Source of the DNA: Marinilabiliaceae bacterium
GTDB lineage: Bacteria > Bacteroidota > Bacteroidia > Bacteroidales > Marinilabiliaceae
Reading direction: 5' to 3'
NCBI GenBank assembly: GCA_016342595.1
Contig: JAEINY010000038.1
Location: 3,807-35,806 of the forward strand
Length of the DNA: 32,000 nucleotides
The notes beneath the pieces were generated by a model that saw only the letters and a program-made list of their open reading frames with translations, had not been told where the DNA came from and did not search any database. The position numbers and the translations under genes are program-made. Of this stretch, positions 13,905 through 28,825 are shown one piece after another. The first letter of the stretch is position 1. Each line of letters begins with the position of its first letter.

Positions 13905-15431
13905 TTAAAAATCCAATTTTTTCAAATACTCTTCCATTTCCACCTGTACCTCCTTGAGTTCACCCTCCAGCTTTTCAATTTCGTCTTGAACGGCTGGGAT
14001 GTTCACCTCTTCTTCTTCTTCAAAGGTATCTACATAACGTGGTATGTTGAGGTTAAACTCATTCTCTTTGATCTCATCAAAAGAGGCTACGTAGCTGTAT
14101 TTGTCTTCGGCAATGCCTTGTAGTAAGTCCCCATTATGAAATTTATTGTAGGTTTTCACTACTTTTTCAATGTCGGCGTCGCGCAGTTTATTCTGATTTT
14201 TGCCCGGTTCACAATCTTTACTGGCATCGATGAATAATACATCGGTCTGCTCTGCTTTTCCTTTGTTGAAGATGAGAATGGCCGCCGGTATACCTGTTCC
14301 AAAAAAGAGGTTGGATGGCAAACCAATCACTGCTTCCAGCATGTTATCCTCAATGGTTCGTTGGCGAATCTTACCTTCGCTGCTTCCTCTAAACAACACC
14401 CCATGTGGTACCACAACCCCCACTTTTCCTTTGCCTTCATAGGCTGATTCGATCATATGGGAGATAAAGGCCCAATCTCCTTTGCTTTTGGGTGGTACGC
14501 CTCGCCAGAAGCGGTTATACTGGTCATTGGCTGCTTCATCGGCTCCCCACTTGTCCAATGAGAAAGGCGGGTTAGCCACCACTGTATCAAATTTCATCAG
14601 CGCATCCCCTTCTTTATGCTTGGGATTACGAATGGTGTCCCCCCATCGAACGGTGGCATTATCGTAACTGTGCAAAAACATGTTCATGACTGCCAAAGCC
14701 CAGGTACTGCCATTGGCTTCCTGACCATATAAAGAGAAGTTATTACTTTCCACTTCTCTGGCTGCTTTGATGAGTAAAGAACCGGATCCACAGGTGGGAT
14801 CATAAATACGTGCACCAGGCTCACTCTTCGTCAGTTTGGCAATGAGGGTGGATACTTCAGCCGGCGTAAAAAACTCACCGGCTTTCTTACCGGCATCACT
14901 GGCAAAGTTAGCTATGAGAAATTCGTAGGCGTCTCCGATGATGTCCTTCCTGGAAAGATGGGAAGGTGTTAAGTCCAGTTCGGAGAAATCGATCAACAGG
15001 TTTTTCAGTCGTGTGTTTTTCCCTTTGGCATCCCCCAGGTTGCTGCTGTTGAATGAGATGTTGCGAAAGATACCTGAACCGTCTTCACTGGTGAGTTTTT
15101 CGCGGTTAGCTTCTTCAAGGTCGGCTAGGGCAATGTCTATTCGTTCCCCGACATTGGCTTCATTTCGGTGCTCATAGAGGTAATCGAAGTAGCTGTTGGC
15201 AGGTACCACAAAGCGCTCCATTTTCATGGCCCGATCGGTCCGTGCTTCATCTCCTTTATACTGCTTCAGGTACTCTTTGCGCTTCTCCTTATTGACATCA
15301 CTCACGTACTTCAAAAACAGCATGGTGAGTATGTAATCTTTATATTGACTTGGATCGATAACCCCTCGAAAAGTATCACATGCTTTCCACACAATTCTAT
15401 TTATATCCTGATCGTTAATTACCTTACTCAT
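13905..15431 (-). CDS. hsdM: Type I R-M N6-adenine DNA methyltransferase subunit
   Basis: HsdM N-terminal pattern (DTFRGVIDPSQYKDYILTMLFLKYVSD), AdoMet motif YDPTCGSGSLL and catalytic VVANPPFS. Confidence 0.95.
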   Translation of the reverse strand: MSKVINDQDINRIVWKACDTFRGVIDPSQYKDYILTMLFLKYVSDVNKEKRKEYLKQYKGDEARTDRAMKMERFVVPANSYFDYLYEHRNEANVGERIDIALADLEEANREKLTSEDGSGIFRNISFNSSNLGDAKGKNTRLKNLLIDFSELDLTPSHLSRKDIIGDAYEFLIANFASDAGKKAGEFFTPAEVSTLIAKLTKSEPGARIYDPTCGSGSLLIKAAREVESNNFSLYGQEANGSTWALAVMNMFLHSYDNATVRWGDTIRNPKHKEGDALMKFDTVVANPPFSLDKWGADEAANDQYNRFWRGVPPKSKGDWAFISHMIESAYEGKGKVGVVVPHGVLFRGSSEGKIRQRTIEDNMLEAVIGLPSNLFFGTGIPAAILIFNKGKAEQTDVLFIDASKDCEPGKNQNKLRDADIEKVVKTYNKFHNGDLLQGIAEDKYSYVASFDEIKENEFNLNIPRYVDTFEEEEEVNIPAVQDEIEKLEGELKEVQVEMEEYLKKLDF

Positions 15432-15433
15432 GG

Positions 15434-15997
15434 TTATTTTGTTAATGCGTTTAATATTTTCTGATCTATCACTTTATCTTTCAGGGCCGTAATTCTATCT
15501 GACAATTGCCTCTCTCTATTTCGAAGTTGCTCGAAATGTAATATTGCTTTTTGCTTGTCCATTGTTGGTACCAACAACTCTAATTCACCAACTGTACTTT
15601 TGTTGATGGAGAGTAGGTTCGTCCCCTTGGCACCGGCCGTTAATTGTTTTTGCACCTTGGGATGGTTGATTTGCCAGGCTAGAAACTGTGGTAGTATCAC
15701 TTGCTGCTTCACCTCTCTCAATACCAAAAACATGGACGAGGCTACAGCCGGCGTCACCTCATCGTGGTATACGGCTGCGAAAAAATCCCCTGCTTTGGCA
15801 GCAATGAGCAGGTTTCCTTTTTGGAGCAGATGCTTACTGACAGAGTTTGAGCCACTAATGTTGGGATTTAGTCCGACCTTCAGCTTGCGCTGTTCATCAA
15901 AATCCCTGGCTTGCAGGTAGTAAACATCACCTACTGCAGAGGTTTTTGTATATATCCCCGTTGATATTATAGATATGTCTTTTACTTTTATCTTCAT
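15434..15997 (-). CDS. hsdS: Half-size type I specificity subunit (single TRD)
   Basis: 187 aa: one TRD-like region plus a C-terminal coiled helix (TMDKQKAILHFEQLRNRERQLSDRITALKDKV). The stop is 2 nt before the hsdM ATG. The helix differs from that of the full HsdS. Confidence 0.65.
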   Translation of the reverse strand: MKIKVKDISIISTGIYTKTSAVGDVYYLQARDFDEQRKLKVGLNPNISGSNSVSKHLLQKGNLLIAAKAGDFFAAVYHDEVTPAVASSMFLVLREVKQQVILPQFLAWQINHPKVQKQLTAGAKGTNLLSINKSTVGELELLVPTMDKQKAILHFEQLRNRERQLSDRITALKDKVIDQKILNALTK

Positions 15998-16153: not shown

Positions 16154-18829
16154 TCAATAACCAATTACCGTATCTAGAACATGTAATGCCACCTTATAGT
16201 CTTCGGTTTTCACTTTTAATGCAGTTGCTTCTTCTACTGCATAGTATTCATCCTGATGTTCCTCTAATTGCTCAATCAATTTACTGATATCATGATCGCC
16301 ATTCCCATTGCTATGATTGACCAAATGTTGAACCATAAAGCTTGAATATGCTTCATCTAACCAAATGTTTTTGCTATTTGAATTGGAATACTTACGAATG
16401 AGCAGATTTTTGGCTAGTAGGTATCTGTAATAAAACACTCTTATTTGCCGTGGGGTCACGTTTTTCAACAATCGAATCTTCTCTCTGAGAAATGCGACTT
16501 CTTCTTTGGTTAACTTGCCATTTAAATTCCTGATACCAGCTTCTTCTTCAGCGTTTGTGTTAGATGTATTATTAATTTGTTTTACTTCGTTACTAACCGA
16601 ATCCTCCATTGTCAGCTGATCTTCTTCATTTGAAATGGTATCTTCAAATTCAGTTTCTCCACCATTTTCACTAAGTTTTTCTAATTCTGCTGATTCTCTA
16701 TCTTCCTTTGTTAGCTCCAAAAAGAACTCATCTTTATTTTCAGGAGTCAGTTCGTGCAGTTTTAAACCCAGAATAAAAAGTTTATCGATGTATTCGGACA
16801 CCAATAGGTCGATATTCGTTGATTCATCGTTTGACTTCACCAATGTGTCGTACTTATGTCGTATTGCTCTTTTTAACAATCGTTCATCAATCGCAGCGAC
16901 CACAATTAGTTTCCTGGCCAATTCATTATCGTCTAACATCACTCTTAAAGAATCAATTATCTGAATGATTCGTTCTTCGGAGCAGCGATCTATGTCATCT
17001 ACAAAGAGCAGTATTTTACGATCTTTTTTACACCATGCTTTTACAAGGTGTTTTAATTCTTTTTGAACTTCGGCCTGTACTCCTAAAACATTTGAAAAGG
17101 AAGTTTTTCCATAGTATTTTTCAAATAACTCCCTGGCCGAGTTGTTGTATTTAAAGTAGAGAACAAGCGAACTGACAACAGTACTGAAACCTATTGCACT
17201 TACAATTCTATAAACAAAATATACTCTGTCCAGTGGCGGAATAAAGAATGTGATTAATGATGATAGAATAACTGATACAAAGAACCAAATTGCTTTGCTT
17301 ATGCCTATCCTGGCAAAATTTAGTTTAAACCTTCTTAACGGGCTTTTCCAAAATTTAAACCAAGAGTCTTTAGGGTCTTTGTAATAGGCGGATGCGAACT
17401 GTTCATACAGGTAAGCCCAAATAGCCGGTGTTTCCTGGTATTTCCAGGCATGAAAATCAACTCTGGCAAACTTATCATCTTTCTGAAAGCAGTTCCAGGT
17501 TTGATTCATTAAGAAGGTCTTGCCACGGCCCCACTCTCCAAAAATACCAATCATGCGGCCTTGTTCGTAGGGCATCTTTTTGATTATTTCACAAAGCTCT
17601 TCGGCAATGTCTTTTACGCCAATGACACCGTTCAGTGCTTCTTTATCTCGGAAGAGGACATCTGTTTTTTTGAATTTGATTGAGTTATTCTTTGCTATAA
17701 TGTCCCCATCAAAAGAAATAGCGCTTTCTAACTTTTTTGTATTATCAAAATAATCAAGAACTCTAAGTTTCGTTTTATCTTCGAAGAATCTTAAAAAACG
17801 ATTAATTATACTAAGCAATTGCAAACCAGAACCAAAGTTTCTTAATAAAATAATGTTGTAAACATTAGGCAAATCAACTCCTGTTGTCAATAGGTCTACA
17901 GATGTTAACACCCTAATATCTCTAACCCTCCTAAATTCTGAAAGAATATGCTGATTATCCCTGTTTGATTGAGAACTAATTATTGCTTTGGAGTATTGTT
18001 CATTGTTTGTGATACTATTCAACTTTTCAGATAATCTCGTTGCAAACTCTTGATTAGAACAAAATATAACCGTTTGTTGGTCATTAATTTCATTTACTAT
18101 TGATTTGGCTAAGATACTGAGGCTTGAATCATTGTTATAAAATGCATCAGACTTATTAATAGAGGTTGAACTGATACTATCCACTCCTAAAGAAGGTGTA
18201 TCTATATCTGATAATGTATTTATTCTGGAATATTCATATGGAAGAAGATACTTATCTTCAATTGCTTTTTGTAATGAATATCTATATACAAGACCTCCAA
18301 AGAATGATCTAGATTTATCTGGGAACGCATCTATTCCCATAATTGTAGCCGTAGTGAAATGCTCTAAGATCCCCTGAGTTTGACTGTTTTCTTTACCTAC
18401 TCCTAGAAACTCGCATTCAAAAAGTACAATTAATTTAAATGTATCAGACTTGAATTCCTTTAAGACATCAGACTTAGCTAATAATCTACCTATTGTTAGC
18501 ACCGTAATTATTGAATCAGATCTTTCGTCACCCAAAGATGAACTGTCTCTTACTTTATCTTCGCCAAAGAGATTAATAATGCTGGGATTAAAAACACGTT
18601 TAATCTCATTTTTAATTTGTATTTCCTGTAGCTTCGTAGCCACTACTAAAAGTGTTTTTCCTTTGTAGATGTTTGTAATTGAAGCGTAATATTCCTTTAA
18701 AATTTGTAATACTGTGTGATTTCCTCCAACCCCATGTGGAAATTGGAGAAGGATTCTCTTTTGCTTTTCAATAAGCGGGACCACCTTTTTAATGGCTTCA
18801 ATTTGGAAGTATCTAAGTTCGCTTTTCAA
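16154..18829 (-). CDS. Fusion protein: degenerate SF2 helicase-like N-terminal half and KAP-family P-loop NTPase with an intradomain TM hairpin
   Basis: Helicase layout in aa 1-350, but motif I reads PHGVGGNHT and motif II LFECEF. TTGVDLP is kept. KAP half: GEWGRGKT (aa 431-438), hydrophobic helices at aa ~510-531 and ~537-558, LLFVDDIDRC (aa 607-616), and TPRQIRVFYYRY near the C-terminus. Confidence 0.75.
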   Translation of the reverse strand: MKSELRYFQIEAIKKVVPLIEKQKRILLQFPHGVGGNHTVLQILKEYYASITNIYKGKTLLVVATKLQEIQIKNEIKRVFNPSIINLFGEDKVRDSSSLGDERSDSIITVLTIGRLLAKSDVLKEFKSDTFKLIVLFECEFLGVGKENSQTQGILEHFTTATIMGIDAFPDKSRSFFGGLVYRYSLQKAIEDKYLLPYEYSRINTLSDIDTPSLGVDSISSTSINKSDAFYNNDSSLSILAKSIVNEINDQQTVIFCSNQEFATRLSEKLNSITNNEQYSKAIISSQSNRDNQHILSEFRRVRDIRVLTSVDLLTTGVDLPNVYNIILLRNFGSGLQLLSIINRFLRFFEDKTKLRVLDYFDNTKKLESAISFDGDIIAKNNSIKFKKTDVLFRDKEALNGVIGVKDIAEELCEIIKKMPYEQGRMIGIFGEWGRGKTFLMNQTWNCFQKDDKFARVDFHAWKYQETPAIWAYLYEQFASAYYKDPKDSWFKFWKSPLRRFKLNFARIGISKAIWFFVSVILSSLITFFIPPLDRVYFVYRIVSAIGFSTVVSSLVLYFKYNNSARELFEKYYGKTSFSNVLGVQAEVQKELKHLVKAWCKKDRKILLFVDDIDRCSEERIIQIIDSLRVMLDDNELARKLIVVAAIDERLLKRAIRHKYDTLVKSNDESTNIDLLVSEYIDKLFILGLKLHELTPENKDEFFLELTKEDRESAELEKLSENGGETEFEDTISNEEDQLTMEDSVSNEVKQINNTSNTNAEEEAGIRNLNGKLTKEEVAFLREKIRLLKNVTPRQIRVFYYRYLLAKNLLIRKYSNSNSKNIWLDEAYSSFMVQHLVNHSNGNGDHDISKLIEQLEEHQDEYYAVEEATALKVKTEDYKVALHVLDTVIGY

Positions 18830-18954
18830 AATATTTGGATTACTTATGATTATTCTTCTCTTCAGTTAATATGCTATGATGGTCTGGTACCAATAAAACT
18901 CTCTTTTTTATGCAGATATTACTGGAGCAACTTTCTCATGGAAGCTTCATACTA

Positions 18955-20253
18955 TTAAACGACCTGATCTAGTTTTATCTCCATCCATTCCAGGATCAGC
19001 TCATCGGCAATGGTTCTTTGCCAGGTTATCATAGTTTCATCCGGTTCGATAGATAATACACTGCACTCTTTATCTGATAGATTTACACCTGAGGTTTCGT
19101 AATATTTGCCTGAACAAACAGTGGATTTTCCCGGGTAGACCAATGCTACTTTTTGAGCATTGAAATATTGGTGGTAAACATACAACTGCCTCAGGTGATC
19201 GGGCGATGGAACACTTCCTCCCAAATTCTTCCATTTGGTATCGAGGATAAAATGTTTCACCTTTTCTTCCGGATGCTTCTTAATGGTAGATACGAGAATG
19301 TCCGGTCTCATGGTAGAATTTCTGCCACTTTCTGAGTGCCAAAACTTTTTGGATGATTGTTCTTTTACCCATAAATGGCCCCTACCGTATTTTCTCAGGC
19401 TTACATATATGAACTTCTCCCATAGTTTATTCATGTCGAACATTAATGAAAGTACATCTTTTTGGCCTTTACTTACATCGGGATGGTAGTTGAGCAATAA
19501 GAGGCGTGCTATCTCAATGGCATTTTGATAGCCTTTGTTTTTTCGGTTAAAAACTATTTTCTCAAAAGTTGCCTCTGCCACGTTGAAGTCAGGCATCTCC
19601 GGAAAATTCAGAGACAATGCCCCCAACTTACTATTCAATTGAGCATTACTGTTTATCTGCTGAATCAGCTTTAAAGTCTTGTAGATGATCTGGTGAATAA
19701 GATGTTGTTGGTCGTAGGTTGTATATTTGACGAAGAACCTTTCCTGATGCACCAGGTTTTTTTGCAGGTGCTTTCCAAAGTGTAAGGCACCTTTAAGTGC
19801 TGTACTATTTCCTTCTGTCTTCCGGTATTTTTTTATGAGCCCTTTGTGTAACAGGTATTCCACCTCTTTGATAAAGAGTTCGAAATAGAGATCGAGAATA
19901 AAATTGGATTTCAGGCTTAAGGCAGAAGAGGTGGGTGCTTTGATATCAAAAGCACCTACCGCTTTTAGCATGCCGATCAATATCTTACGCCATTGATCCT
20001 TTTTTCTATACCGGTCGGCTTTTGGAAGTACTTCAATAATCAGATTACCTACCTGCAGCACCCCTACGAATTCATTGAATTTAACACCTTTGTGAATGAG
20101 ATTAAAATAGGGCACACCTTTTCCATGGAACTTTTCCAATGCCTCATGATGTTTGGCTGTGAATATTATTTTATCGTAGGTATCACCCACTTTTAGTGAC
20201 TGATGTTCGAATACCGGGATTCTTTGAAATTGGCTAGTTGGCATTGTAGTCAA
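18955..20253 (-). CDS. mcrC: McrC-like nuclease subunit
   Basis: 432 aa, overlapping the McrB stop by 20 nt. C-terminal PD-(D/E)xK signature RPDILVS...FILDTKWK. Confidence 0.85.
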   Translation of the reverse strand: MTTMPTSQFQRIPVFEHQSLKVGDTYDKIIFTAKHHEALEKFHGKGVPYFNLIHKGVKFNEFVGVLQVGNLIIEVLPKADRYRKKDQWRKILIGMLKAVGAFDIKAPTSSALSLKSNFILDLYFELFIKEVEYLLHKGLIKKYRKTEGNSTALKGALHFGKHLQKNLVHQERFFVKYTTYDQQHLIHQIIYKTLKLIQQINSNAQLNSKLGALSLNFPEMPDFNVAEATFEKIVFNRKNKGYQNAIEIARLLLLNYHPDVSKGQKDVLSLMFDMNKLWEKFIYVSLRKYGRGHLWVKEQSSKKFWHSESGRNSTMRPDILVSTIKKHPEEKVKHFILDTKWKNLGGSVPSPDHLRQLYVYHQYFNAQKVALVYPGKSTVCSGKYYETSGVNLSDKECSVLSIEPDETMITWQRTIADELILEWMEIKLDQVV

Positions 20254-22639
20254 TTTCGTTCATTAACTTTCTTAGAGCATCTTTAAAGCTTTCCACACTC
20301 ATAGCTAAAGGATCAGAAATGGTGTACATGGTTTGCTCAAGGAAGCCATCTGTATCGTAATCGCTGGTCACTTTTGCAAAAACTGAATTCCCGTTACTTG
20401 CATCCGCTTTTTCACCTTTGCAGAAACCTTCGCCCAATACCAATGCAATTTTACCATAATCGCCATAGAAATATTCCTGCAGCAATGGAATGATCTCATT
20501 ACTAAAAGAAGCTTGCAGACTTTCTTCATTATGTACTTTCATAAAGAAACTATGGCCAATCAAGTGATCTTTGTCCAGAAGGATGTTGATTCGATTATTG
20601 ATGATGTTTAGCATTTTAGGCAAATCAACTTCATAGTCTCCAATTGATATTTTAGCGTCTGCTTCTTTAAGTTTCCCGTGTTCTCTAATTAAACCGGCAT
20701 CTGGTGGCATTTCTGTAAAGCTAAAACGACGGCGTAAGGCTGTATCCAATGCTTCCACACTGCGGTCGGCCGTGTTCATGGTACCAATGATGTGGAGGTT
20801 TTGAGGCACCCCAAATTCTTTTTTGCTATATGGCAAGGTTACTTTTAGGGCTTCTTCTTTCCCCAGGCGTTTGTTTTCTTCAATAAGAGTGATGAGCTCT
20901 CCAAAAATGGCAGATACATTTCCCCGGTTTATTTCATCAATGATGAGGACGTATTTTTGATTCGAATTGTCGTGTATTTCCTCAGTGAAGTCAGAGGCAT
21001 TAAGGATTTCATTAATTACAACAGCTTCATAAGATTTGTAAATTGGATCTTTACCTTCAAACAATACCTGTTTAAGTTCATTGAAAGACAGACTCATTGG
21101 AGTTTTCTTTTCCCCTGCTTTTACAACGATCGTATTATTCGAGTTTTTATACAGTTTGAAAGATGTTTTGTCATGGACAGTTTTAAGTATTACAGTTGAA
21201 TCTGAAGCGGTATGTAGCGGTAATGAATCTGCAAAACTTTGATAGTATTCTCTAAAGATATCGAGTGTCAACTCTGTCAGTTCATCTTCAATTTGAATTT
21301 TAATATTTTTAGATTGAGTAGCTTCTTTACAAATAAGCTTGAAAACTCCACCTTCCACGGTGTATGTCACCTGCTGACCTTCCTCCTTGGGCTCCTGGGG
21401 TTTGATACCTTCCACAAAATCTTCATAACTCATACTTTGGTGAAAGGTGATGAATACGATTTGGTTGTTATCTACCAGACGGTCGTATTCGTGTTTGATT
21501 ATTTTCCATTCCCGATCCAATTTGAAATCCGGATTGATGATTTCAATGGCTTTTTTTATTGAGTTATAGGTTTTACCGGTTCCGGGAGGGCCGAAGAGGA
21601 TTTGGTTGAGGGGGTGGTTCATGCTTTTTGTATCTGATTCATTAATTTTTTGTGTTGCAGCTTTGGAATGATGGGATCCATTGGACATTAAAAATGGTGA
21701 TAAGTTATCTTGTCTAGGGTAATCGAAGCCGTCAATGGTATTTAGTTTTTCTCTTGAGACGGGTGGTGAAACTTTTTTAAAGTCGCTGCATAAGAAGACA
21801 ATTTTTGCAGATTTGTTATCATCAGCATACTGATCCATTGATTTCCTGAAGTGTAATATTTCATTTTTCTCAGGCCAAGATCTGAGGTGCTCATCTTTGG
21901 TTGCTATTTTTATTATTCGTGCTGTGTAGGTTAGTTCTTTATTCTGAATGTAGGATAAGTCAAAATACCCGAATCTTTTTATCGTTTCATTTAGCTCCTT
22001 TATGGTTTTATTGGTGCCAGATGGTTTTTTACTGTTCCAAATTGTGGAATATTGACCATTCGAGCTTTCACGCTCTTCAATGTGATCATCATGCCATCCC
22101 GTATTGTCAGAGGCTAATAAACCAACTCTTTGTTCTGAAATAGATAGTATTTCAGGAACTGATGGTTTGATTTTACTTTCATAGAAGTCTATTATCTTTT
22201 TAGAAAGGTCATCATAACTATTGAATTCTAATATTTCATCGAAACTAAAATTGGATTCAACTCCCTTAACTTTTCTGAAATTTAATAGTTCACCTCTTTT
22301 ATTTAGTTCTTCATCCCATGTGTCAGAGTCAATTCTTAAGTAAAAATCGTCTTCAACTGAATAGGCTAATGAAATATCCAGGTTAGCCCATTTTTCAGTT
22401 GGGTAAACACGGTACCAGAGGTAATTTTTGATGTTTTTCCCGGTTGGAACAGGATTCCAGGTTTTGCTGTCTTTCTTGTAATTAAATGCATTTAAAGTTT
22501 CTTTAAGAAGATTTGTCAGATATTCTAGCTTCTTATGAAGTTGATTTATTAATTCGAGATCTTCTGAGGAAACCTGTTTTTGGTTTGTCCCTTTGTTATT
22601 TTTAAATGCATTGAGCTCTGCAAGTGTTATATATTCCAT
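20234..22639 (-). CDS. mcrB: McrB-like AAA+ GTPase subunit with a ~340-aa non-canonical N-terminal region
   Basis: ILFGPPGTGKTY (Walker A), YVLIIDEINRGNVSAIFGELITLIE, and IIGTMNTADRSVEALDTALRRRFSF are McrB hallmarks. The N-terminal 340 aa were not recognised. Confidence 0.9.
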   Translation of the reverse strand: MEYITLAELNAFKNNKGTNQKQVSSEDLELINQLHKKLEYLTNLLKETLNAFNYKKDSKTWNPVPTGKNIKNYLWYRVYPTEKWANLDISLAYSVEDDFYLRIDSDTWDEELNKRGELLNFRKVKGVESNFSFDEILEFNSYDDLSKKIIDFYESKIKPSVPEILSISEQRVGLLASDNTGWHDDHIEERESSNGQYSTIWNSKKPSGTNKTIKELNETIKRFGYFDLSYIQNKELTYTARIIKIATKDEHLRSWPEKNEILHFRKSMDQYADDNKSAKIVFLCSDFKKVSPPVSREKLNTIDGFDYPRQDNLSPFLMSNGSHHSKAATQKINESDTKSMNHPLNQILFGPPGTGKTYNSIKKAIEIINPDFKLDREWKIIKHEYDRLVDNNQIVFITFHQSMSYEDFVEGIKPQEPKEEGQQVTYTVEGGVFKLICKEATQSKNIKIQIEDELTELTLDIFREYYQSFADSLPLHTASDSTVILKTVHDKTSFKLYKNSNNTIVVKAGEKKTPMSLSFNELKQVLFEGKDPIYKSYEAVVINEILNASDFTEEIHDNSNQKYVLIIDEINRGNVSAIFGELITLIEENKRLGKEEALKVTLPYSKKEFGVPQNLHIIGTMNTADRSVEALDTALRRRFSFTEMPPDAGLIREHGKLKEADAKISIGDYEVDLPKMLNIINNRINILLDKDHLIGHSFFMKVHNEESLQASFSNEIIPLLQEYFYGDYGKIALVLGEGFCKGEKADASNGNSVFAKVTSDYDTDGFLEQTMYTISDPLAMSVESFKDALRKLMNEIDYNAN

Positions 22640-22686
22640 TTGTCTATTTTTTATCCTCTGTTATTAATATGAGTGGTGTTATGACA

Positions 22687-25600
22687 TTATTCCATTATTT
22701 GCTTTGTTTTTTTTGTGATTAATCTAATGATGTCACCTTCGATTTTATGGCTTGAGATAAATTGTTGTTTTTCCAGTAATGAAGCAAATTCTTTGTTTTC
22801 ATTGGTATGTTTAATTTTTGCATGTAGTCCTTTTTCTTTTGAGATAAGTGGAAAGTCACCGGGAAGTACATTCAACAAGCTCATGATTTGCTTTTTGGTG
22901 AAATGCTTAATTGAGCTATTAAGGATGACTACTTTTTCTTGGACGTTAAAATCTAAATTTAGAACTGAGTGAATAAACTCAAAGTCGCGTGTCCGGATTT
23001 CATTTTCAATGATGTATTCAACCAGCTTTTCGATAAGATGAGTATTGCTGATATCTAAGGCTACTATATTTATTTCTTCGATGAGCTGAATCTTATGCTT
23101 TTTATCCAGATTGCTTTCAAGAAGAACTGCATAATCCGAGTCAGTAATTGGTAGTTGAACTTTGTTGTCAAAAAACTCTAGAATTTCATATGACAAGAAA
23201 AGAATATGCAAATCATTATTATAGGTTTTGAGAGTTGTATAGTTTTGGGCATTAAGTTCTAAAAGAGAATGTACAACTAATATTTCCGCTAATTCAGTTG
23301 ATACGGTATCTTTATTAAAAGTCGGAAACTCCAAAGTAAAAGATTTTGCTAAAATATCAATAGTGCTGATCGATAGCTTGTTACTAAAGAGAATAACTTT
23401 TGCGAGTTCGGTTTCTTTATTGGAATCATTACAATCGCTGGCTTTTTGTTTGCTGAGTTGCTTTATACTATCGGCATTTTCAAGAAAATCTGTTAAAGTA
23501 TCATTTAGTTTAAATTCAAGGTGCTCATAATAAAGCCACACATTGCTCCAGGATGGATATACTTTTGAGTATTGAAATAACAATGGCCACAATTCTTTAT
23601 TTATCGGCGAAATATCATGCATATTGAATTCCAAATCATCAATAATTTCTTCTTTTTTATCAAGGGGTAATGATTGATTCAGGAGTAGACATATGTCATT
23701 GGCATCCATTTTAAATTCATTGATATCCTCTCGTAAAAAAGTATCCGTGTTTAATACAATAAATTGAATATGATGATCTAGGCCATATTCTTTTAAAAGC
23801 TTTTGATTGTTTACATTAAAATCCAGCGCTTTATTCTCAAGAATAATTTGGGCTCTTTCTTGAGTCATGTTTTCGATGTCAAAAGATGAAATTGTGATTG
23901 TATTGTGTTTCAGTAGTGCTTTTAGACTTTCCTCTTTAATTTCGGTAGTTTTAATGATTAATTCTGTCAATACCTGTGCCTCTGAAACAATCTCACCAGC
24001 CATGCTTGATTCAGAAAGAGCTTCGTAGTTTGCTTTTTTATTGAGGAAATCAACTAATTCTTGGTTTAGTTCTTCGGTATGGTTGTAATATGATGCTATA
24101 TTTTGCCAATTGGCTTCTACTTTACCATGCTTAATTAGAGGAATTAGAAGATCTTCATCCGTAATTTTTCTTAGGAAAGTTATTTTAGAATCGATCGAAT
24201 TAATAAGAGTTAGTTTATATTCGAAATGCATATCTCCATTCAGTATGGCAAGGAAAGCTTCAGGACTTTCTTTTTGTGGGCTATCAAATGTTGACCATAC
24301 ATTTTCATAGTAGGTATTTAAGTTAGCGTTTATGTAGGTGATTATATTCTTGTTGTTAGATTGAAGGATGCTGGAATAGTTTTGGGTTTTTAAATCATCC
24401 TTCAGATTCTTTGTTCCAGACTTATCCTCTGAAAGCATCAAATGCAGCATGTGAGGATTTATACCGTAAAAGTTATTTTCACAAATAAATGTTGCCAATT
24501 CATGATGACTTGTAAGTATCAGTTTTTCAAACTTAATATCAAGAACTGCAATGAGTTCAGCCAGTTCGCATCCTTGTGTCTTATTTTCAAACATAAACAA
24601 AAAGTCAGATTCTTGTTCGATGTATTCTTTAAAAGCATATCCAGAATTATTGGATATTTTCTCTAAATCATCTATTTGTAGTTGTGGGTTATTTAGTAAT
24701 AGCTGAATGTAGTATCGTTTGGCATTGAGTTTAGCACTAACGTTCTCGACAAAGCTCCAGAAATTAGGATGCCAAAGCAGTAAGGTGTTAATAAATTTGT
24801 TACACGTGTCAAATGCCTTTTCTTGTTGAAGATGATCTACGTATTGATCTATGAAATCATCAGCTTTTAGGGTATTTAACGAAAATTGTCTCATTAAAAG
24901 ATCCAATTTCATAGTATTGCCGGTTGACGAAAGAAGGTGAGATAGTAATGTAAAATTTAAGGCTGCATCGTTAATGAATTCTTTGTCATCAATTTCTTCT
25001 ATAATATTCTCAATATTGGTAAGTGGAATGTCAAAGGGTTGAGATTTCCAATTCTTTACGTTCATCACAAATTCATAATCCTGTTTGTTTAAAGAGCCTT
25101 CATGAAAAATGGAGATGTTGTGGTAGTAGTTTTCATCAATATAACCATGACGAATAACATAAATAAGAAGGTCATAGTTGTGGCCATTATGAGTCTGTTT
25201 TTTGTTTTTTTGTAATAACGTGTCGATCCATTTATTGTCAGTAGTTATTGATATTAGATCCTTTATGTGAAGCTTATTATGTCTTTCTTTAGATTTTTTC
25301 AGTTGAGCGATTTCTTGATTGAAACTAGAAATAGCCCCTTCCTGTTTTTGGGTGATTTTTGCTTTTCGCTGCTCATAGGTATTAGTTGGGTCTATACTAT
25401 TTTCAATCGATTTGAAATCCACGGAATAAGTATCATTATAACTACCACGGAATTGCATTCCAGTATTAACTAATATTTCAAAATTGTCGTCTTTGTTGAT
25501 TTCACTTATCGAAATGTTCTTTGAATTGTTAATTGTAAAATGCTTGATTTCATTGCGATAAGTACGAATTAAAACTTCAACAATATATTCTTGTTGGAGA

Positions 25601-27063
25601 ATTTTAATACTATCAAATTTTTCTATACTTAGATTGTCTATACTTTTTTTAATTGACTCGATTTTTTCGTCTATTTCTGATGCATGTAGCCTAATCAGTT
25701 TTTGCTTTTTAGTATTAAATATATCCCATAAGAGACCTTCTTTTTGATGTAGTTTGTTAAAATCTTCAGGAAACAGATTTTTATAGAGAATCATACTAAA
25801 GACTTGTTCCGGGTTGTGAGAGATGTTAATTTGTCTATTTTCAGAAGAGGAGATATTGATCTTATCAATGTATATTTTAAACTCATTGACAACATTTGCC
25901 AGCAAGCGCATATCGTAGATGTAGTAGCCAATGTTTCGAATAAATTTCTCGCTTATTGGAAAGTTTTCTTTGTCAAATCCGGCACCAGCCATTAGGTCAA
26001 GTAACTTATCGCGTGAGTTATTGGAGTTTACGTAGGGTACTATGGGAATAATGAAGTCGAAAAACTTGGTTCGCTGGTGGCTATCGGGAAAGAGGTCATC
26101 GCGCACTGCAAATATGAAATTTATGGAGCCACTTTCTTTAATTTCAGGCGATTGATTGAGTAATATATTCAGTTCACGTAACTTGGTAAAGAGGTTGATG
26201 TTTTCAAAGCGATCTAAATCTTCGATAATAACTACTTTCTTCTTGGACGCTTCAAAAAGGTAAATGAGTTCATCCGTATTGGAGGTGAGGACTGATTCTG
26301 TTTGGTTCTGATTTAACTCTATTTCATGAGAGTTGATTTTTAGTTTTTTGATACTGCCTTTTCTGGAGTAATATACAGCGTAATATAATCCTTGATAGAG
26401 AGTATAAACAAGGAATATAAACACTGGTATATTTATGTATTGTATAGGACTAGCCCAAGCTATGTTTTTAAAAAACATAAGAAGGCTATTTGATTTAAGG
26501 AATTCAATATTTTCTTTCAAGGATGAAAATAGGATGGGGCTCCAAAGTATGCACAGAACAGTTACCAATAGAAATACAGTATATTCTTCTCTTTTTTCAC
26601 TTTTTAGATTTCTTACCCTTCTAATTTTCGAATAAATGGTTTGCTCTCGAGGAAGTTGATAAAAAATCTGTTGAATGATGTTTCTTTCTACTTCTTGTTC
26701 TGTCTCCTCTTTGTTGTTAGTGGATCTAATAGAGTCGCTTAAGTCCTCTTTGTCGCTTTTGGCTTCAAGATTATCAGGGTTGTTTGAATTGTGATTTTGG
26801 TTTTTTTCTTCATGTTTATACTTTGTGGTATTACCATTCGTGCAAAAATGCGCTAAAGATATTCTAACAGGCGAGTCTTTATCCTCTACAGACTTAAAGA
26901 ATGAATCCAGAACTGAACTTTTACCGGAACCATAGGGGCCGGTAATGGCTATGTTGTGAATGTCTTTATCCTCTATAGCGTATTTCAGAGCTTTGAAATA
27001 AATATCTTCCTTTAGGTTTTTATTTGCTGTTAGTTTGAGGAATTTGGAGTCGTCTGTTGGCAT
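22687..27063 (-). CDS. Giant YobI/KAP-like P-loop NTPase with a TM hairpin inside the NTPase domain and ~1100-aa helical C-terminal region
   Basis: AITGPYGSGKSS (nt 26917-26943). Hydrophobic helices at aa ~161-181 and ~211-232. Walker B is VVIIEDLDRFENINLFTKLRELN (aa 277-299). The rest is N/I/L/K-rich with an internal duplication. Confidence 0.6.
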   Translation of the reverse strand: MPTDDSKFLKLTANKNLKEDIYFKALKYAIEDKDIHNIAITGPYGSGKSSVLDSFFKSVEDKDSPVRISLAHFCTNGNTTKYKHEEKNQNHNSNNPDNLEAKSDKEDLSDSIRSTNNKEETEQEVERNIIQQIFYQLPREQTIYSKIRRVRNLKSEKREEYTVFLLVTVLCILWSPILFSSLKENIEFLKSNSLLMFFKNIAWASPIQYINIPVFIFLVYTLYQGLYYAVYYSRKGSIKKLKINSHEIELNQNQTESVLTSNTDELIYLFEASKKKVVIIEDLDRFENINLFTKLRELNILLNQSPEIKESGSINFIFAVRDDLFPDSHQRTKFFDFIIPIVPYVNSNNSRDKLLDLMAGAGFDKENFPISEKFIRNIGYYIYDMRLLANVVNEFKIYIDKINISSSENRQINISHNPEQVFSMILYKNLFPEDFNKLHQKEGLLWDIFNTKKQKLIRLHASEIDEKIESIKKSIDNLSIEKFDSIKILQQEYIVEVLIRTYRNEIKHFTINNSKNISISEINKDDNFEILVNTGMQFRGSYNDTYSVDFKSIENSIDPTNTYEQRKAKITQKQEGAISSFNQEIAQLKKSKERHNKLHIKDLISITTDNKWIDTLLQKNKKQTHNGHNYDLLIYVIRHGYIDENYYHNISIFHEGSLNKQDYEFVMNVKNWKSQPFDIPLTNIENIIEEIDDKEFINDAALNFTLLSHLLSSTGNTMKLDLLMRQFSLNTLKADDFIDQYVDHLQQEKAFDTCNKFINTLLLWHPNFWSFVENVSAKLNAKRYYIQLLLNNPQLQIDDLEKISNNSGYAFKEYIEQESDFLFMFENKTQGCELAELIAVLDIKFEKLILTSHHELATFICENNFYGINPHMLHLMLSEDKSGTKNLKDDLKTQNYSSILQSNNKNIITYINANLNTYYENVWSTFDSPQKESPEAFLAILNGDMHFEYKLTLINSIDSKITFLRKITDEDLLIPLIKHGKVEANWQNIASYYNHTEELNQELVDFLNKKANYEALSESSMAGEIVSEAQVLTELIIKTTEIKEESLKALLKHNTITISSFDIENMTQERAQIILENKALDFNVNNQKLLKEYGLDHHIQFIVLNTDTFLREDINEFKMDANDICLLLNQSLPLDKKEEIIDDLEFNMHDISPINKELWPLLFQYSKVYPSWSNVWLYYEHLEFKLNDTLTDFLENADSIKQLSKQKASDCNDSNKETELAKVILFSNKLSISTIDILAKSFTLEFPTFNKDTVSTELAEILVVHSLLELNAQNYTTLKTYNNDLHILFLSYEILEFFDNKVQLPITDSDYAVLLESNLDKKHKIQLIEEINIVALDISNTHLIEKLVEYIIENEIRTRDFEFIHSVLNLDFNVQEKVVILNSSIKHFTKKQIMSLLNVLPGDFPLISKEKGLHAKIKHTNENKEFASLLEKQQFISSHKIEGDIIRLITKKTKQIME

Positions 27064-27217: not shown

Positions 27218-27865
27218 TTAATTTCTCTTATCCACTGTATCATCCGGCCAATCAATCAAATTGACCATCTCCCTCAATCGACTGCGTACTCGTTGCCCAT
27301 ATAGTTCTTCAATTTGATCCACATCCAGGTTAGTGGTGATGAGGGTGATGAGGTTATCGGAGATGAAGAGGTCGTAGCGGCTGAGTAGGATTTCGGCTAT
27401 TACGTTGCATTCACTGCCGAAATGTTTGAGGCTTTGTTCGGCTCCCAAGTCATCTAGACAGATGGGTTTTGGTATTTTTCTACCTGGAGAAATAGAAAAG
27501 CTGCGTTTGCTGTAGCGGTGAATGACTTCGAAACCGTCCTTTTGAAATTCGAAGCTGATATCGCGGCAGGGTTTGACCTGGTAGCGGTGTTCAATGGGGA
27601 GTAGGAGTTGCATCAGTTTCATCAGTGAGGTTTTGCCACAGCCGATGGGACCGCAAAGCATGAGGCCTTTTCTGGGATCCAATTCTTGTGATATGGTGGT
27701 GGGATGGTCGCCAATGGTGTAGGCGAAGAGTTTCCGGATGATGGGCATGTCTTCATCGTATAGTTTGAAGGTGGGGCCGTAGATGGTTTGGCCTTTTTTT
27801 GTGATGAAGGATAAGGACTTTTGGAAGTCGTAGATGATGGTGTTGTTTTTTATTTGGTAGTGCAT
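27218..27865 (-). CDS. DnaC/IstB-like AAA+ ATPase
   Basis: Walker A LMLCGPIGCGKTSL. Walker B and following region read ICLDDLGAEQSLKHFGSECNVIAEILLSRYD, the helicase-loader-like pattern. Confidence 0.65.
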   Translation of the reverse strand: MHYQIKNNTIIYDFQKSLSFITKKGQTIYGPTFKLYDEDMPIIRKLFAYTIGDHPTTISQELDPRKGLMLCGPIGCGKTSLMKLMQLLLPIEHRYQVKPCRDISFEFQKDGFEVIHRYSKRSFSISPGRKIPKPICLDDLGAEQSLKHFGSECNVIAEILLSRYDLFISDNLITLITTNLDVDQIEELYGQRVRSRLREMVNLIDWPDDTVDKRN

Positions 27866-27913
27866 GTTTTTTCAGTTTTAAGTTAAAACCTAAAGTGCTC
27901 AAGGAATACTATT

Positions 27914-28177
27914 TTATCTAAGTGCTATAGCCGCACGGGCTTTTACTTTCTCCCTACAGTCGCAGAAAGTAAACAAAGAAGACCGCCGATACTGCCCAAT
28001 TACGCTAAATGATTCCATTACGGCGGAAAGAAAAGAACTCGCTCTGCTCAAACAGCTTTTCTTTCTGATCGCCTTTATTTCATCATTCTTAACGCTATTG
28101 GTCAGAGGCGGATGTTCATATTGAAAAGTTGTATTATCATTTGGTGATTGTGTTGAAACTGCTTTCTTGTATGGCAT
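27914..28177 (-). CDS. Small hypothetical protein (87 aa, internal-Met version of the 164-aa track ORF)
   Basis: ATG at 28175-28177 lies 10 nt after the stop of the upstream gene (28188). The longer form overlaps that gene and is low-complexity T/P/S-rich. Confidence 0.25.
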   Translation of the reverse strand: MPYKKAVSTQSPNDNTTFQYEHPPLTNSVKNDEIKAIRKKSCLSRASSFLSAVMESFSVIGQYRRSSLFTFCDCREKVKARAAIALR

Positions 28178-28187
28178 GACGTTATTT

Positions 28188-28544
28188 TTAGTTGAGTGAA
28201 TATTTGCTGGGGATGGCAATTGGAAAGTTGATGGGTTGAAAGAAGAATGCCATGTGTTTGATGAAGGTGATGATGTTGGCATAGTAGTGCAGGAGGCATT
28301 CGGCATCGGTGTAGGTATTGTAGGGCGGGTCGAATGTGTAGCTGTATTCCTGACCTGATAAATGACAATAAACGGATTGTATCCTGTCGTGAAGATCAAT
28401 GATTTCACATAGGTAGGATTGTTTGTCGATGAATAGTTTTTGCTCGAAGAATTGCTCGGAAAGGTTAACTATCTTATCCAGGATTTGATCGAAGTTTTCG
28501 ATGTTGAACTTGCATTTTAGGTTTTGGTAGAGTAGGTTTTTCAT
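28188..28544 (-). CDS. Hypothetical protein (118 aa)
   Basis: Ordinary amino-acid composition from MKNLLYQNLK (ATG 28542-28544). No motif recognised. Confidence 0.4.
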   Translation of the reverse strand: MKNLLYQNLKCKFNIENFDQILDKIVNLSEQFFEQKLFIDKQSYLCEIIDLHDRIQSVYCHLSGQEYSYTFDPPYNTYTDAECLLHYYANIITFIKHMAFFFQPINFPIAIPSKYSLN

Positions 28545-28821: not shown

Positions 28822-28825
28822 ATTG

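What the first reader, a model, noticed from the sequence alone, without database searches (positions are those of the whole stretch)
16154..27063. McrBC pair bracketed by two different membrane-inserted KAP-type NTPases in one co-directional block
Seen: four consecutive minus-strand genes. They are a 1458-aa YobI-like NTPase, a 47-nt gap, McrB, a 20-nt overlap, McrC, a 125-nt gap, and an 891-aa helicase-like::KAP fusion. Both flanking proteins have a pair of hydrophobic helices inserted between Walker A and Walker B (GSGKSS...EDLDRF and GRGKT...DDIDRC). Established: an intradomain TM hairpin is the defining oddity of the KAP P-loop family, and McrBC is a GTP-dependent modification-dependent restriction system. 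Inference: this may be one composite membrane-linked system built around McrBC, or three stacked independent systems. I do not recognise either arrangement as a described defence system.
Basis: partly seen in the sequence, partly recalled or inferred. Interest (0 to 1): 0.8.

Follow-up and report, generated by a model that had tools for sequence, protein, structure and literature searches.

The report
Stacked defence genes, not one system
The four genes are real, but they are best read as three separate anti-phage modules lying side by side in a defence island: a known Tmn membrane NTPase, an ordinary McrBC restriction pair, and a rare, undescribed KAP NTPase with a degenerate helicase-like head.

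Summary
Four minus-strand genes lie at the stated coordinates, with the stated gaps, motifs and hydrophobic hairpins.

The composite-system reading is not supported.
- The 1458-aa protein is Tmn, an experimentally characterised single-gene defence. About 25 other Tmn loci have no McrBC pair and no KAP gene beside them.
- McrB and McrC are a standard type IV pair.
- The 891-aa protein ("HelKAP") has about 16 sampled lineages in Bacteroidota. McrBC lies within 10 kb in 3 of them, in three different arrangements. Type I restriction-modification lies nearby in 4. Tmn lies nearby only in the window's own lineage. Several copies sit alone among housekeeping genes.

Every ORF of at least 100 aa from 4319 to 31601 is on the minus strand, apart from a few plus-strand ORFs that lie inside or overlap these genes. 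This run includes a type I system carrying Fic and PDC-M04 cargo. Shared orientation therefore says little.

The new part is HelKAP. It joins an HsdR-like two-RecA head with no nuclease domain to a conserved membrane-inserted KAP NTPase. The window copy lacks the Walker A lysine, and no family member has a canonical DExH. I found no description of this architecture, although KAP NTPases fused to variable regions were shown to be anti-phage in 2026.

Interest is modest.

The parts
22687..27063 (-). [quoted passage not shown] It is an unusually long and divergent variant.
   Evidence: PADLOC Tmn 8.4e-83, residues 18-1081. Pfam YobI-ATPase 7.7e-99. At least 5907 homologues at E<=1e-10, typically about 1220 aa. 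The nearest homologue outside the island is 33% identical.
26368..26580 (-). Hydrophobic hairpin of Tmn (residues about 162-232), lying between Walker A (26914-26940) and IIEDLDRF (26206-26229).
   Evidence: Hydropathy peaks at 162-180 and 201-219. Motif positions.
22690..23820 (-). C-terminal 377 aa of Tmn (residues 1082-1458), not covered by the PADLOC Tmn profile and with no Pfam family. This is the presumed trigger-recognition region.
   Evidence: The C-terminal end still aligns with homologues. Variable C-terminal regions are reported to set Tmn specificity.
20234..22639 (-). McrB-type AAA+ GTPase of 801 aa. It has Walker A GPPGTGKT (residues 350-357), Walker B LIIDE (565-569) and the MNTADRS signature (621-627).
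   Evidence: AAA_5 1.8e-15. Solved McrB structures 6ut3 8.4e-57 and 6hz4 1.9e-30. Motifs.
20975..21382 (-). Insertion of about 135 aa inside the McrB AAA+ domain, between Walker A and Walker B. It is hypervariable between the window and its 91% relative.
   Evidence: Aligned columns 400-600 are 41-42% identical, with gaps. The rest of McrB is 88-100% identical.
18955..20253 (-). McrC of 432 aa, with PD-(D/E)xK nuclease motifs RPD (residues 316-318) and DTK (338-340).
   Evidence: Pfam McrBC 8.4e-56 over the full profile. Motifs.
16154..18829 (-). HelKAP, an 891-aa fusion of an HsdR-like helicase head and a KAP NTPase.
   Evidence: KAP_NTPase 6e-28, ResIII 6.9e-13, Helicase_C 6.3e-9. About 45 full-length homologues, all with source names from Bacteroidota.
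17675..18829 (-). Degenerate two-RecA SF2 head (residues 1-385). It resembles the EcoAI/EcoEI-type HsdR motor, has no nuclease domain, and carries GVGGNHT and LFECEF in place of GxGKT and DExH.
   Evidence: NCBIfam EcoAI R-subunit model positions 156-550 match residues 3-383. PDB 3h1t 1.6e-21. Foldseek hits RadD, HsdR and SauUSI. Motif counts.
16550..17632 (-). KAP P-loop NTPase domain (residues about 400-760) with invariant Walker A and Walker B.
   Evidence: G431, W433, G434, R435, G436, K437, D612, D614, R615 and C616 are invariant in 30 homologues.
17150..17293 (-). Hydrophobic hairpin inserted in the KAP domain (residues 513-560).
   Evidence: Hydropathy peaks. Long helices at 510-528, 532-546 and 548-574 in the AF2 model.
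4319..15997 (-). Adjacent type I restriction-modification operon with embedded cargo.
- Half-HsdS: 15434-15997
- HsdM: 13905-15431
- SoFic-like Fic: 12353-13825
- HsdS: 10985-12319
- Unknown 267-aa ORF: 10173-10976
- PDC-M04A: 9011-9679
- PDC-M04B: 8476-9105
- HsdR: 5014-8226
- YgjP-like: 4319-5017
   Evidence: An exact Bacteroidetes-type -7 motif TAnnTTTG lies 30 nt upstream of the half-HsdS ATG.
27218..30059 (-). Upstream genes of mobile-element type: a DnaC-like P-loop protein at 27218-27865 and an HTH_17 protein at 29790-30059.
   Evidence: The same DnaC-like gene precedes Tmn in the 91% relative.

Best explanation
The block is part of a defence island, probably cargo of an integrative element. 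At least three self-sufficient immune modules lie head to tail in it, followed by a type I restriction-modification operon that carries cargo of its own.

1. Tmn. By homology it is a membrane-anchored oligomeric NTPase. Its variable C-terminal arm recognises a phage protein. It then raises ATP turnover and causes ion export and plasmolysis, which stops the infection.

2. McrBC. McrB is a GTP-driven AAA+ ring with an N-terminal DNA-reading region. It recruits the McrC PD-(D/E)xK nuclease, which cuts modified foreign DNA.

3. HelKAP. This is a single-polypeptide KAP NTPase held at the membrane by a hairpin inserted in its P-loop domain. Its N-terminal head derives from the motor of an EcoAI/EcoEI-type HsdR. 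The head has lost the nuclease domain and, in this copy, the catalytic Walker A lysine and the DExH box. It most likely acts as a binding or sensor module for DNA or for a phage protein. The conserved KAP NTPase would then drive a membrane-level abortive response, as reported for PifA and Tmn. No nuclease or other enzymatic effector domain is detectable.

What is shown: domain identities, motifs, hairpins, degeneracy of the head, and lack of conserved linkage.
What is inferred: the sensor role of the head, the membrane output, and anti-phage function for this particular protein.
For: Identity of the parts.

Tmn acts as a single gene, and its mechanism is published.

Tmn contexts.
- Homologues sit alone among housekeeping genes (L170 and L175).
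- One sits in another island next to type I RM and a TIR-NTPase (L174).
- 23 viral-contig loci have no McrBC pair and no KAP gene. One (L177) has a McrB-like AAA gene 2.3 kb away.

HelKAP contexts, 16 lineages at 60% identity.
- McrBC lies within 10 kb in 3 lineages. In the window lineage it is upstream and co-directional. In L003 it is on the opposite strand beyond a type I operon. In Pedobacter L008/L015 it is convergent and downstream.
- Type I RM is nearby in 4 lineages.
- Tmn is nearby in 1 lineage, the window's own.
- L084 lies after metabolic and transport genes and L085 lies between an ECF sigma gene and fecR. Neither has McrBC or a type I system within 10 kb.

Discordant similarity.
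- L003: HelKAP head 36% and KAP part 49% identical to the window (43% overall), but McrC only 28%.
- L008: HelKAP head 25% and KAP part 38%, but McrC 46%.

The whole 27-kb run is co-directional and holds further systems: type I RM, SoFic-like Fic, and PDC-M04A/B.

The 91% relative keeps the same order but shows mosaic divergence: Tmn 72%, McrB 81%, McrC 96%, HelKAP 91%, HsdS 61%. In that relative Tmn and McrB overlap by 1 nt instead of being 47 nt apart, and a Pycsar pair sits in place of PDC-M04.

Degeneracy of the head.
- The Walker A lysine is kept in 15 of 30 homologues.
- A canonical DExH is present in 0 of 30.
- Mean conservation is 0.36 for the head and 0.60 for the KAP domain.

KAP NTPases fused to variable regions protect against phage, and protection depends on Walker B.
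Against: - McrBC is nominally more frequent beside HelKAP (3 of 15 lineages) than beside KAP-only relatives (2 of 105). Fisher p = 0.014. This count includes the lineage that prompted the question, and the numbers are small.
- One KAP-only relative (L054) has KAP, McrB and McrC co-directional with a 12-nt gap.
- I found no terminator-like site on the minus strand and no recognisable promoter in the 47-nt or 125-nt gaps. Co-transcription of the four genes cannot be excluded.
- Tmn is reported to synergise with other defence systems. Functional cross-talk without physical integration remains possible.
- No experiment exists for this HelKAP family.
Confidence: 0.8

Rival explanations
1. One composite, membrane-linked system. 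Tmn and HelKAP would be obligatory accessory subunits that tether or regulate McrBC, and the four genes would form one operon with one function.
For: - Spacing is tight: a 47-nt gap, an 11-20-nt overlap and a 125-nt gap.
- No terminator-like sites lie on the coding strand.
- The same four-gene order is kept in the 91% relative.
- L054 has a KAP gene 12 nt upstream of McrB-McrC.
Against: - The four-gene order is seen only in one closely related pair of genomes.
- Tmn lies next to a HelKAP homologue in no other lineage, and about 25 other Tmn loci have no McrBC pair.
- HelKAP occurs alone.
- Where McrBC is near HelKAP, its position and strand differ each time, and the similarity rankings are discordant.
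- Tmn works alone experimentally.
- The neighbouring 20 kb are equally co-directional and hold unrelated systems.
Confidence: 0.04
2. HelKAP is functionally tied to restriction systems, while Tmn is independent. Its HsdR-derived, catalytically dead head would act as a decoy or guard. It would bind what normally binds a restriction motor: unmodified or foreign DNA, or a phage anti-restriction protein. It would then trigger the KAP membrane response when restriction is being subverted. This is analogous to PrrC, which guards a type I enzyme.
For: - The head is closest to type I HsdR motors but is degenerate.
- 6 of 16 HelKAP lineages lie within 10 kb of type I RM and/or McrBC.
- KAP-only relatives sit next to or inside type I operons in 9 of 105 lineages. 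An example is L025, with HsdM-KAP-HsdS-HsdR at 1-nt and 12-nt spacing.
- Other heads in the clade include the EVE modified-base reader and a region shared with this window's McrB N-terminus.
Against: - 10 of 16 HelKAP lineages have no restriction system within 10 kb.
- Clustering of defence genes next to RM loci is generic for defence islands.
- The window's own HsdR belongs to a different HsdR family (HSDR_N, SWI2_SNF2, T1RH-like_C; 1070 aa) from the EcoAI-like head.
- The head lacks the C-terminal part of HsdR.
- The commonest heads among KAP relatives are LRR repeats (13 of 113), which do not point to DNA.
- There is no experimental support.
Confidence: 0.14

Closest known systems
Tmn (YobI-family transmembrane NTPase; Millman et al. 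2022 as cited; mechanism in PMC13001434)
   Same: The 1458-aa protein matches the PADLOC Tmn profile and Pfam YobI-ATPase. It has the two helices inserted between Walker A and Walker B. Like many homologues, it needs no conserved partner gene.
   Different: It is about 240 aa longer than typical homologues (about 1220 aa). It is only 33% or less identical to anything outside its own island lineage. Its last 377 aa fall outside the PADLOC profile. The trigger is therefore unknown and probably differs from the T2 RIIB trigger described for E. coli Tmn.
McrBC type IV restriction (E. coli K-12; Thermococcus gammatolerans structures 6ut3 and 6hz4)
   Same: It has an AAA+ GTPase with Walker A, Walker B and the MNTADRS signature. 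Its partner McrC has a PD-(D/E)xK nuclease. The two genes overlap.
   Different: The N-terminal 340 aa match no Pfam family, so the reader domain is neither the E. coli DUF3578/ADAM domain nor an EVE domain. A hypervariable insertion of about 135 aa sits inside the AAA+ domain. Scores are far below the NCBIfam equivalog cut-offs.
KAP P-loop anti-phage NTPases (PifA of the F plasmid; EF_KAP and relatives, PMC13552941)
   Same: HelKAP has a KAP NTPase domain with intact Walker A and Walker B and membrane helices. The domain is fused to a variable non-catalytic region in a single polypeptide, and homologues occur as solitary genes.
   Different: The fused region is N-terminal and is a degenerate HsdR-like two-RecA head. 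The regions described so far are C-terminal and of unknown fold. PifA is reported to lack the transmembrane helices.
QatA of QatABCD
   Same: There is weak similarity in the KAP domain: PADLOC QatA 1.4e-11 and NCBIfam QatA 56.7 bits.
   Different: The score is far below the QatA cut-off of 600 bits. No QatB, QatC or QatD genes are present. QatA has no helicase head.
Type I HsdR of the EcoAI/EcoEI families
   Same: The HelKAP head aligns with the two RecA-like motor domains (model positions 156-550), and its fold matches HsdR, RadD and SauUSI.
   Different: It has no N-terminal nuclease domain and no C-terminal HsdR region. Motif I and motif II are degenerate. It is fused to a membrane NTPase.
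Defence islands that combine mcrBC and hsd, such as the E. coli K-12 immigration control region (own knowledge), and type I operons with embedded guards such as PrrC
   Same: McrBC lies next to a type I operon, and additional defence genes are embedded in or abut the hsd genes.
   Different: The cargo differs (Tmn, HelKAP, SoFic-like Fic, PDC-M04), and the host is a Marinilabiliaceae bacterium (Bacteroidota).

Membership tests
Tmn (YobI-family defence NTPase) | Match to the family profiles above threshold | tested here: met
   Pfam YobI-ATPase scores 332 bits against a cut-off of 27. PADLOC Tmn gives 8.4e-83 over residues 18-1081.
Tmn (YobI-family defence NTPase) | Two transmembrane helices inserted inside the P-loop domain, between Walker A and Walker B | tested here: met
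   Walker A lies at residues 42-50, hydrophobic peaks at 162-180 and 201-219, and IIEDLDRF at 279-286. This rests on hydropathy only; no topology predictor was run.
Tmn (YobI-family defence NTPase) | Long solenoid-like C-terminal arm | tested here: inconclusive
   About 1000 aa follow the NTPase domain. Pfam finds nothing in the last 378 aa. The region aligns with homologues to the C-terminal end. No structure was predicted for it.
Tmn (YobI-family defence NTPase) | Functions without a conserved partner gene | tested here: met
   Homologues are solitary or have varied neighbours. Published single-gene activity is cited.
Tmn (YobI-family defence NTPase) | Protects against phage | not testable with these tools
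   This needs a phage challenge.
McrBC (type IV restriction) | McrB AAA+ GTPase with Walker A, Walker B and the MNxxDR signature | tested here: met
   AAA_5 1.8e-15. PDB McrB chains 8.4e-57. GPPGTGKT at 350, LIIDE at 565, MNTADRS at 621.
McrBC (type IV restriction) | McrC with the McrBC/DUF2357 region and a PD-(D/E)xK nuclease | tested here: met
   PF10117 scores 190 bits over profile positions 1-318 of 318. RPD at 316 and DTK at 338.
McrBC (type IV restriction) | mcrB immediately followed by mcrC in one operon | tested here: met
   The genes overlap by 11-20 nt.
McrBC (type IV restriction) | Recognisable modified-DNA reader at the McrB N-terminus | tested here: inconclusive
   No Pfam family matches residues 1-340. 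Residues 173-320 are 32% identical to the head of a KAP NTPase, P0110.
McrBC (type IV restriction) | Equivalog of E. coli McrB and McrC by NCBIfam cut-offs | tested here: not met
   McrB scores 117.7 bits against a cut-off of 637, and McrC 85.1 against 338. The proteins are distant family members, not orthologues of the E. coli pair.
KAP P-loop NTPase (for the 891-aa protein) | KAP_NTPase profile above threshold with intact Walker A and Walker B | tested here: met
   98.4 bits against a cut-off of 20. GxWGRGKTF and DDIDRC are invariant in 30 homologues.
KAP P-loop NTPase (for the 891-aa protein) | Transmembrane segments inserted within the NTPase domain | tested here: met
   Hydrophobic peaks at 513-531 and 539-560 lie between Walker A (431) and Walker B (609). 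The AF2 model has helices there.
QatABCD | QatA equivalog score and QatB/C/D partner genes | tested here: not met
   NCBIfam QatA scores 56.7 bits against a cut-off of 600. No Qat partner was found among the window proteins scanned.
Type I restriction R subunit (HsdR) | N-terminal nuclease domain, catalytically intact SF2 motifs I and II, and C-terminal HsdR region | tested here: not met
   The alignment begins at model position 156, at residue 3 of the protein. Motif I reads GVGGNHT and motif II reads LFECEF. The C-terminal half is a KAP domain.
Hypothetical composite 'McrBC plus two membrane NTPases' system | Linkage of the components conserved across lineages in a fixed order | tested here: not met
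   The four-gene order is seen only in the window and its 91% relative. HelKAP has McrBC nearby in 3 of 16 lineages, in three different arrangements. Tmn lies next to an McrBC pair in none of about 25 further loci.

The most novel reading that the evidence does not exclude
HelKAP defines a new single-gene immune sensor. A catalytically dead copy of a type I restriction motor serves as bait, either for foreign DNA or for phage anti-restriction proteins that target such motors. It is wired to a membrane-inserted KAP NTPase that shuts the cell down. It would thus be a guard of restriction systems, which would explain why it and its KAP relatives so often sit next to or inside type I and McrBC loci.
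Probability: 0.14. Interest if true: 0.7.

Novelty: new variant of a known kind. Interest (0 to 1): 0.33.

Why it matters
As stated, the finding would have meant a new multi-component, membrane-tethered form of McrBC restriction. The evidence says it is not that. This avoids a false lead and shows that two of the three modules are already understood.

What remains of value is modest but concrete.
- A rare, Bacteroidota-restricted architecture links a degenerate restriction-motor head to a KAP membrane NTPase. This class was shown experimentally to be anti-phage only in 2026.
- The architecture offers a testable case of how KAP NTPases get their input.
- The recurring placement of KAP NTPases inside type I operons could be checked for a guard relationship.

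Tried and rejected
- The sigma-70 promoter and intrinsic-terminator scan of 15300-28000 gave counts no higher than shuffled sequence and no minus-strand terminator. It does not settle co-transcription, and Bacteroidota use other promoters (own knowledge).
- I searched for the Bacteroidetes -7 motif TAnnTTTG. There are 12 minus-strand matches in the window against about 10 expected. Within 200 nt upstream of the nine gene starts checked there are two: one 30 nt upstream of the half-HsdS gene and one 175 nt upstream of hsdS, inside the Fic gene. There is none upstream of Tmn, McrB, McrC or HelKAP. This is weak evidence either way.
- The Rfam and tRNA scans of the window found nothing.
- The Foldseek search of the full HelKAP model returned only helicase-head matches, so it said nothing about the KAP or C-terminal parts.
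- The original 2004 KAP family paper could not be retrieved. Whether it mentions helicase fusions is therefore unchecked.
- Literature searches for a helicase::KAP fusion or a KAP-McrBC link found nothing.
- I considered HelKAP as a QatA or PifA homologue. It shares only partial KAP-domain similarity with them.
- I considered the head as a recent duplicate of the neighbouring HsdR and rejected this, because the neighbour belongs to a different HsdR family.
- I considered whether the HelKAP-McrBC enrichment (p = 0.014) shows a partnership. I judged it insufficient because of ascertainment, small numbers, variable arrangement and discordant similarity.
Full report
**Observation.** On the minus strand the order is: a 1458-aa ORF at 22687-27063, a 47-nt gap, an 801-aa ORF at 20234-22639, a 20-nt overlap, a 432-aa ORF at 18955-20253, a 125-nt gap, and an 891-aa ORF at 16154-18829. 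The overlap falls to 11 nt if McrC starts at the ATG three codons in, which is how the gene was called in a close relative. Profile matches are strong: YobI-ATPase 7.7e-99, AAA_5 1.8e-15, McrBC 8.4e-56, and KAP_NTPase 6e-28 together with ResIII and Helicase_C. The quoted motifs and a pair of hydrophobic helices between Walker A and Walker B are present in both flanking proteins. The deposited names of the identical proteins show that the window comes from a Marinilabiliaceae metagenome-assembled genome.

**What the genes are.**
- The 1458-aa protein is Tmn. It matches the PADLOC Tmn profile at 8.4e-83 over residues 18-1081. Tmn is a described single-gene defence. A 2026 study reports a decameric membrane NTPase of the YobI family. 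Its variable C-terminal arm recognises a phage protein (T2 RIIB). It then raises ATP turnover, exports Mg2+ and causes plasmolysis. It synergises with the ATP-sensitive systems Gabija, Septu I and PrrC. Neither Tmn paper mentions McrBC at all (0 occurrences).
- The window's Tmn is a long, divergent variant. It has 1458 aa against about 1220 aa for typical homologues. It is 33% or less identical to anything outside its own island lineage. Its last 377 aa lie outside the PADLOC profile and have no Pfam family.
- McrB and McrC are a standard pair. McrB has GPPGTGKT, LIIDE and the MNTADRS signature. McrC has RPD...DTK nuclease motifs. McrB matches solved McrB structures.
- The 891-aa protein, here called HelKAP, has a two-RecA SF2 head at residues 1-385, a KAP NTPase with the inserted hairpin at about 400-720, a disordered acidic linker, and a helical C-terminal region.

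**Surroundings.** The four genes are not a distinct co-directional unit. Every ORF of at least 100 aa from 4319 to 31601 is on the minus strand, apart from a few plus-strand ORFs that lie inside or overlap these genes. Downstream of HelKAP lies a type I restriction-modification operon: half-HsdS, HsdM, HsdS and HsdR. It carries embedded cargo: a SoFic-like Fic protein, the candidate pair PDC-M04A/B, and a YgjP-like protein. Upstream lie a DnaC-like P-loop protein and an HTH_17 protein, which are typical of integrative elements. This is a defence island.

**Linkage test for HelKAP.**
- The protein search gave about 45 full-length homologues. All with source names are from Bacteroidota.
- I collected 169 loci of HelKAP and its KAP-only relatives from genomes and metagenomes, together with gene-context look-ups. 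I annotated them with iterated profiles seeded from the window's proteins and dereplicated them at 60% identity.
- Among 16 HelKAP lineages, McrBC lies within 10 kb in 3. In the window lineage it is upstream and co-directional. In L003 it is on the opposite strand beyond a type I operon. In Pedobacter L008/L015 it is convergent and downstream.
- Type I restriction-modification is nearby in 4 lineages: the window, L003, L087 and L089. Tmn is nearby only in the window's own lineage.
- L084 follows metabolic and transport genes, and L085 lies between an ECF sigma gene and fecR. Neither has McrBC or a type I system within 10 kb. L086 lies beside an integrase and unknown genes. L199 lies beside a large DEAD/MZB helicase system.
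- The similarity rankings disagree. In L003 the HelKAP head is 36% and the KAP part 49% identical to the window (43% overall), but McrC is only 28% identical. In L008 the head is 25% and the KAP part 38% identical, but McrC is 46% identical. The neighbours were therefore acquired independently.
- McrBC adjacency is nominally higher for HelKAP (3 of 15 lineages) than for KAP-only relatives (2 of 105), with Fisher p = 0.014. The count includes the discovery lineage, and the arrangements are not conserved. I read this as clustering within defence islands, not as an operon.
- L054 and L008 are themselves multi-system islands on mobile elements.

**Linkage test for Tmn.**
- Three look-ups of the closest named homologues gave two solitary genes in housekeeping contexts and one in another island, next to type I RM and a TIR-NTPase.
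- None of 23 further loci from viral contigs has an McrBC pair or a KAP gene. One has a McrB-like AAA gene 2.3 kb away.
- In the 169 KAP loci, Tmn appears only in the window lineage and once about 10 kb away.

**The close relative.**
- A genome with a 91% identical HelKAP keeps the same order, but divergence is mosaic: Tmn 72%, McrB 81%, McrC 96%, HelKAP 91%, HsdM 97%, HsdS 61%.
- Within Tmn, segments of 38-64% identity alternate with segments of 85-97%.
- Within McrB, a patch of about 135 aa inside the AAA+ domain is 41-42% identical, while the rest is 88-100% identical.
- In the relative, Tmn and McrB overlap by 1 nt instead of being 47 nt apart. A Pycsar pair sits in place of PDC-M04 inside the type I operon.
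- This is the behaviour of separately evolving immune modules.

**Anatomy of HelKAP.**
- The head is closest to the motor of EcoAI/EcoEI-type HsdR subunits. NCBIfam model positions 156-550 match residues 3-383. PDB 3h1t matches at 1.6e-21. An exhaustive search finds proteins of about 780 aa in which the match starts near residue 160. Foldseek hits RadD, an HsdR fragment and SauUSI.
- The head has no nuclease domain, and its catalytic motifs are degenerate. Motif I reads GVGGNHT in the window, and the lysine is kept in only 15 of 30 homologues. Motif II reads LFECEF, and no homologue has a canonical DExH.
- Conservation is 0.36 in the head against 0.60 in the KAP domain. The KAP Walker A and Walker B residues are invariant.
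- Relatives with the same KAP domain carry other N-terminal heads: LRR in 13 of 113, DUF5648 in 5, EVE in 4, TIR in 3, and single cases of HU, Schlafen/AlbA_2, TPR and others. One carries a region 32% identical to residues 173-320 of this window's McrB.
- KAP-only relatives lie next to or inside type I operons in 9 of 105 lineages. An example is L025, with HsdM-KAP-HsdS-HsdR.

**Most likely mechanism.**
- Tmn and McrBC are expected to work as published for their families. This is an inference from homology with intact motifs.
- For HelKAP, I propose that the degenerate head is a binding or sensor module. The membrane-anchored KAP NTPase would convert binding into an NTP-dependent membrane-level abortive response. 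No nuclease or other effector domain is detectable. The characterised relatives act this way: PifA causes membrane depolarisation and leakage, and Tmn causes plasmolysis.
- KAP NTPases fused to variable regions were shown to protect against phage in a Walker B-dependent way in 2026.
- The sensor role, the ligand and the output are inferences.

**Comparison with known systems, and novelty.**
- Tmn and McrBC pass their membership tests as family members. Neither is an orthologue of the E. coli proteins.
- HelKAP is a KAP NTPase. It is not QatA (56.7 bits against a cut-off of 600, and no Qat partners), not an HsdR, and not any PADLOC system.
- I found no paper that describes a helicase::KAP fusion or a KAP-McrBC link. 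The 2004 KAP family paper could not be read.
- The block as a whole is an ordinary defence island. The HelKAP architecture is a new variant of a known kind.

**Limits.**
- The numbers of independent HelKAP lineages are small.
- Co-transcription could not be judged from sequence.
- No background rate for McrBC adjacency of other defence genes in the same genomes was computed.
- Transmembrane calls rest on hydropathy and an AF2 model with mean pLDDT 75.
- The guard-of-restriction idea remains open at roughly 14%.

Noticed in passing
window 2803-3750 (+): A 74-aa ORF with a TIR-like N-terminus (FISYSHED...) ends early at 3027. It is followed by two tandem direct repeats of about 188 nt (3015 to about 3390, 78-79% identity). 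After these comes a GC-rich, strongly G-skewed stretch with no ORF of at least 100 aa. There is no Rfam match even at E<=1 and no tRNA. It may be a disrupted TIR gene with an inserted repeat element or an unknown RNA. It is unexplained.
   Followed up: partly
window 4319-15997 (-): The type I restriction-modification operon carries embedded cargo: a SoFic-like Fic protein (12353-13825), the candidate defence pair PDC-M04A (DUF3800, 9011-9679) and PDC-M04B (8476-9105), an unknown 267-aa ORF, an extra half-HsdS (15434-15997), and a YgjP-like metallopeptidase after HsdR. In the 91% relative L001, a Pycsar pair (Guanylate_cyc plus PycTM) occupies the PDC-M04 position.
   Followed up: partly
window 20975-21382 (-), McrB residues about 420-555: An insertion of about 135 aa sits between Walker A and Walker B of the McrB AAA+ domain. 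It is only 41-42% identical, with gaps, to the copy in the 91% relative, while the flanking McrB sequence is 88-100% identical. It is a hypervariable patch inside the motor, not in the N-terminal reader.
   Followed up: no
window 21680-22123 (-), McrB residues 173-320; protein P0110 / locus L044: This part of the McrB N-terminal region is 32% identical (2e-17) to the region just upstream of the KAP domain in a Fluviicola KAP NTPase. McrB and KAP NTPases therefore share at least one head module of unknown fold.
   Followed up: partly
loci L025, L041, L052, L060, L061, L065, L120, L131, L135, L156, L049/L051: KAP NTPases related to the HelKAP KAP domain, but with other heads, are repeatedly found inside or abutting type I restriction-modification operons. 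An example is L025, with HsdM-KAP-HsdS-HsdR at 1-nt and 12-nt spacing. This holds for 9 of 105 dereplicated lineages.
   Followed up: partly
locus L054, 9008-15847: In a Prolixibacteraceae genome, a KAP NTPase with a 329-aa head of unknown family lies 12 nt upstream of McrB (1022 aa) and McrC, all co-directional. They are flanked by a DUF4011-helicase-REase protein, a PDDEXK_4 protein and a WYL regulator. This is the single case that looks operon-like.
   Followed up: partly
window 22687-27063 (-) compared with L001 1902-6227: Tmn shows mosaic divergence between two otherwise close islands. Blocks of 38-64% identity are interleaved with blocks of 85-97% identity. This suggests recombination or diversifying selection in the sensing arm.
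   Followed up: no
window 460-2628 (+): A 722-aa protein has N-terminal hydrophobic segments and a Slo-like RCK domain (2.7e-7). It has no PADLOC match. It sits on the opposite strand at the edge of the island.
   Followed up: no
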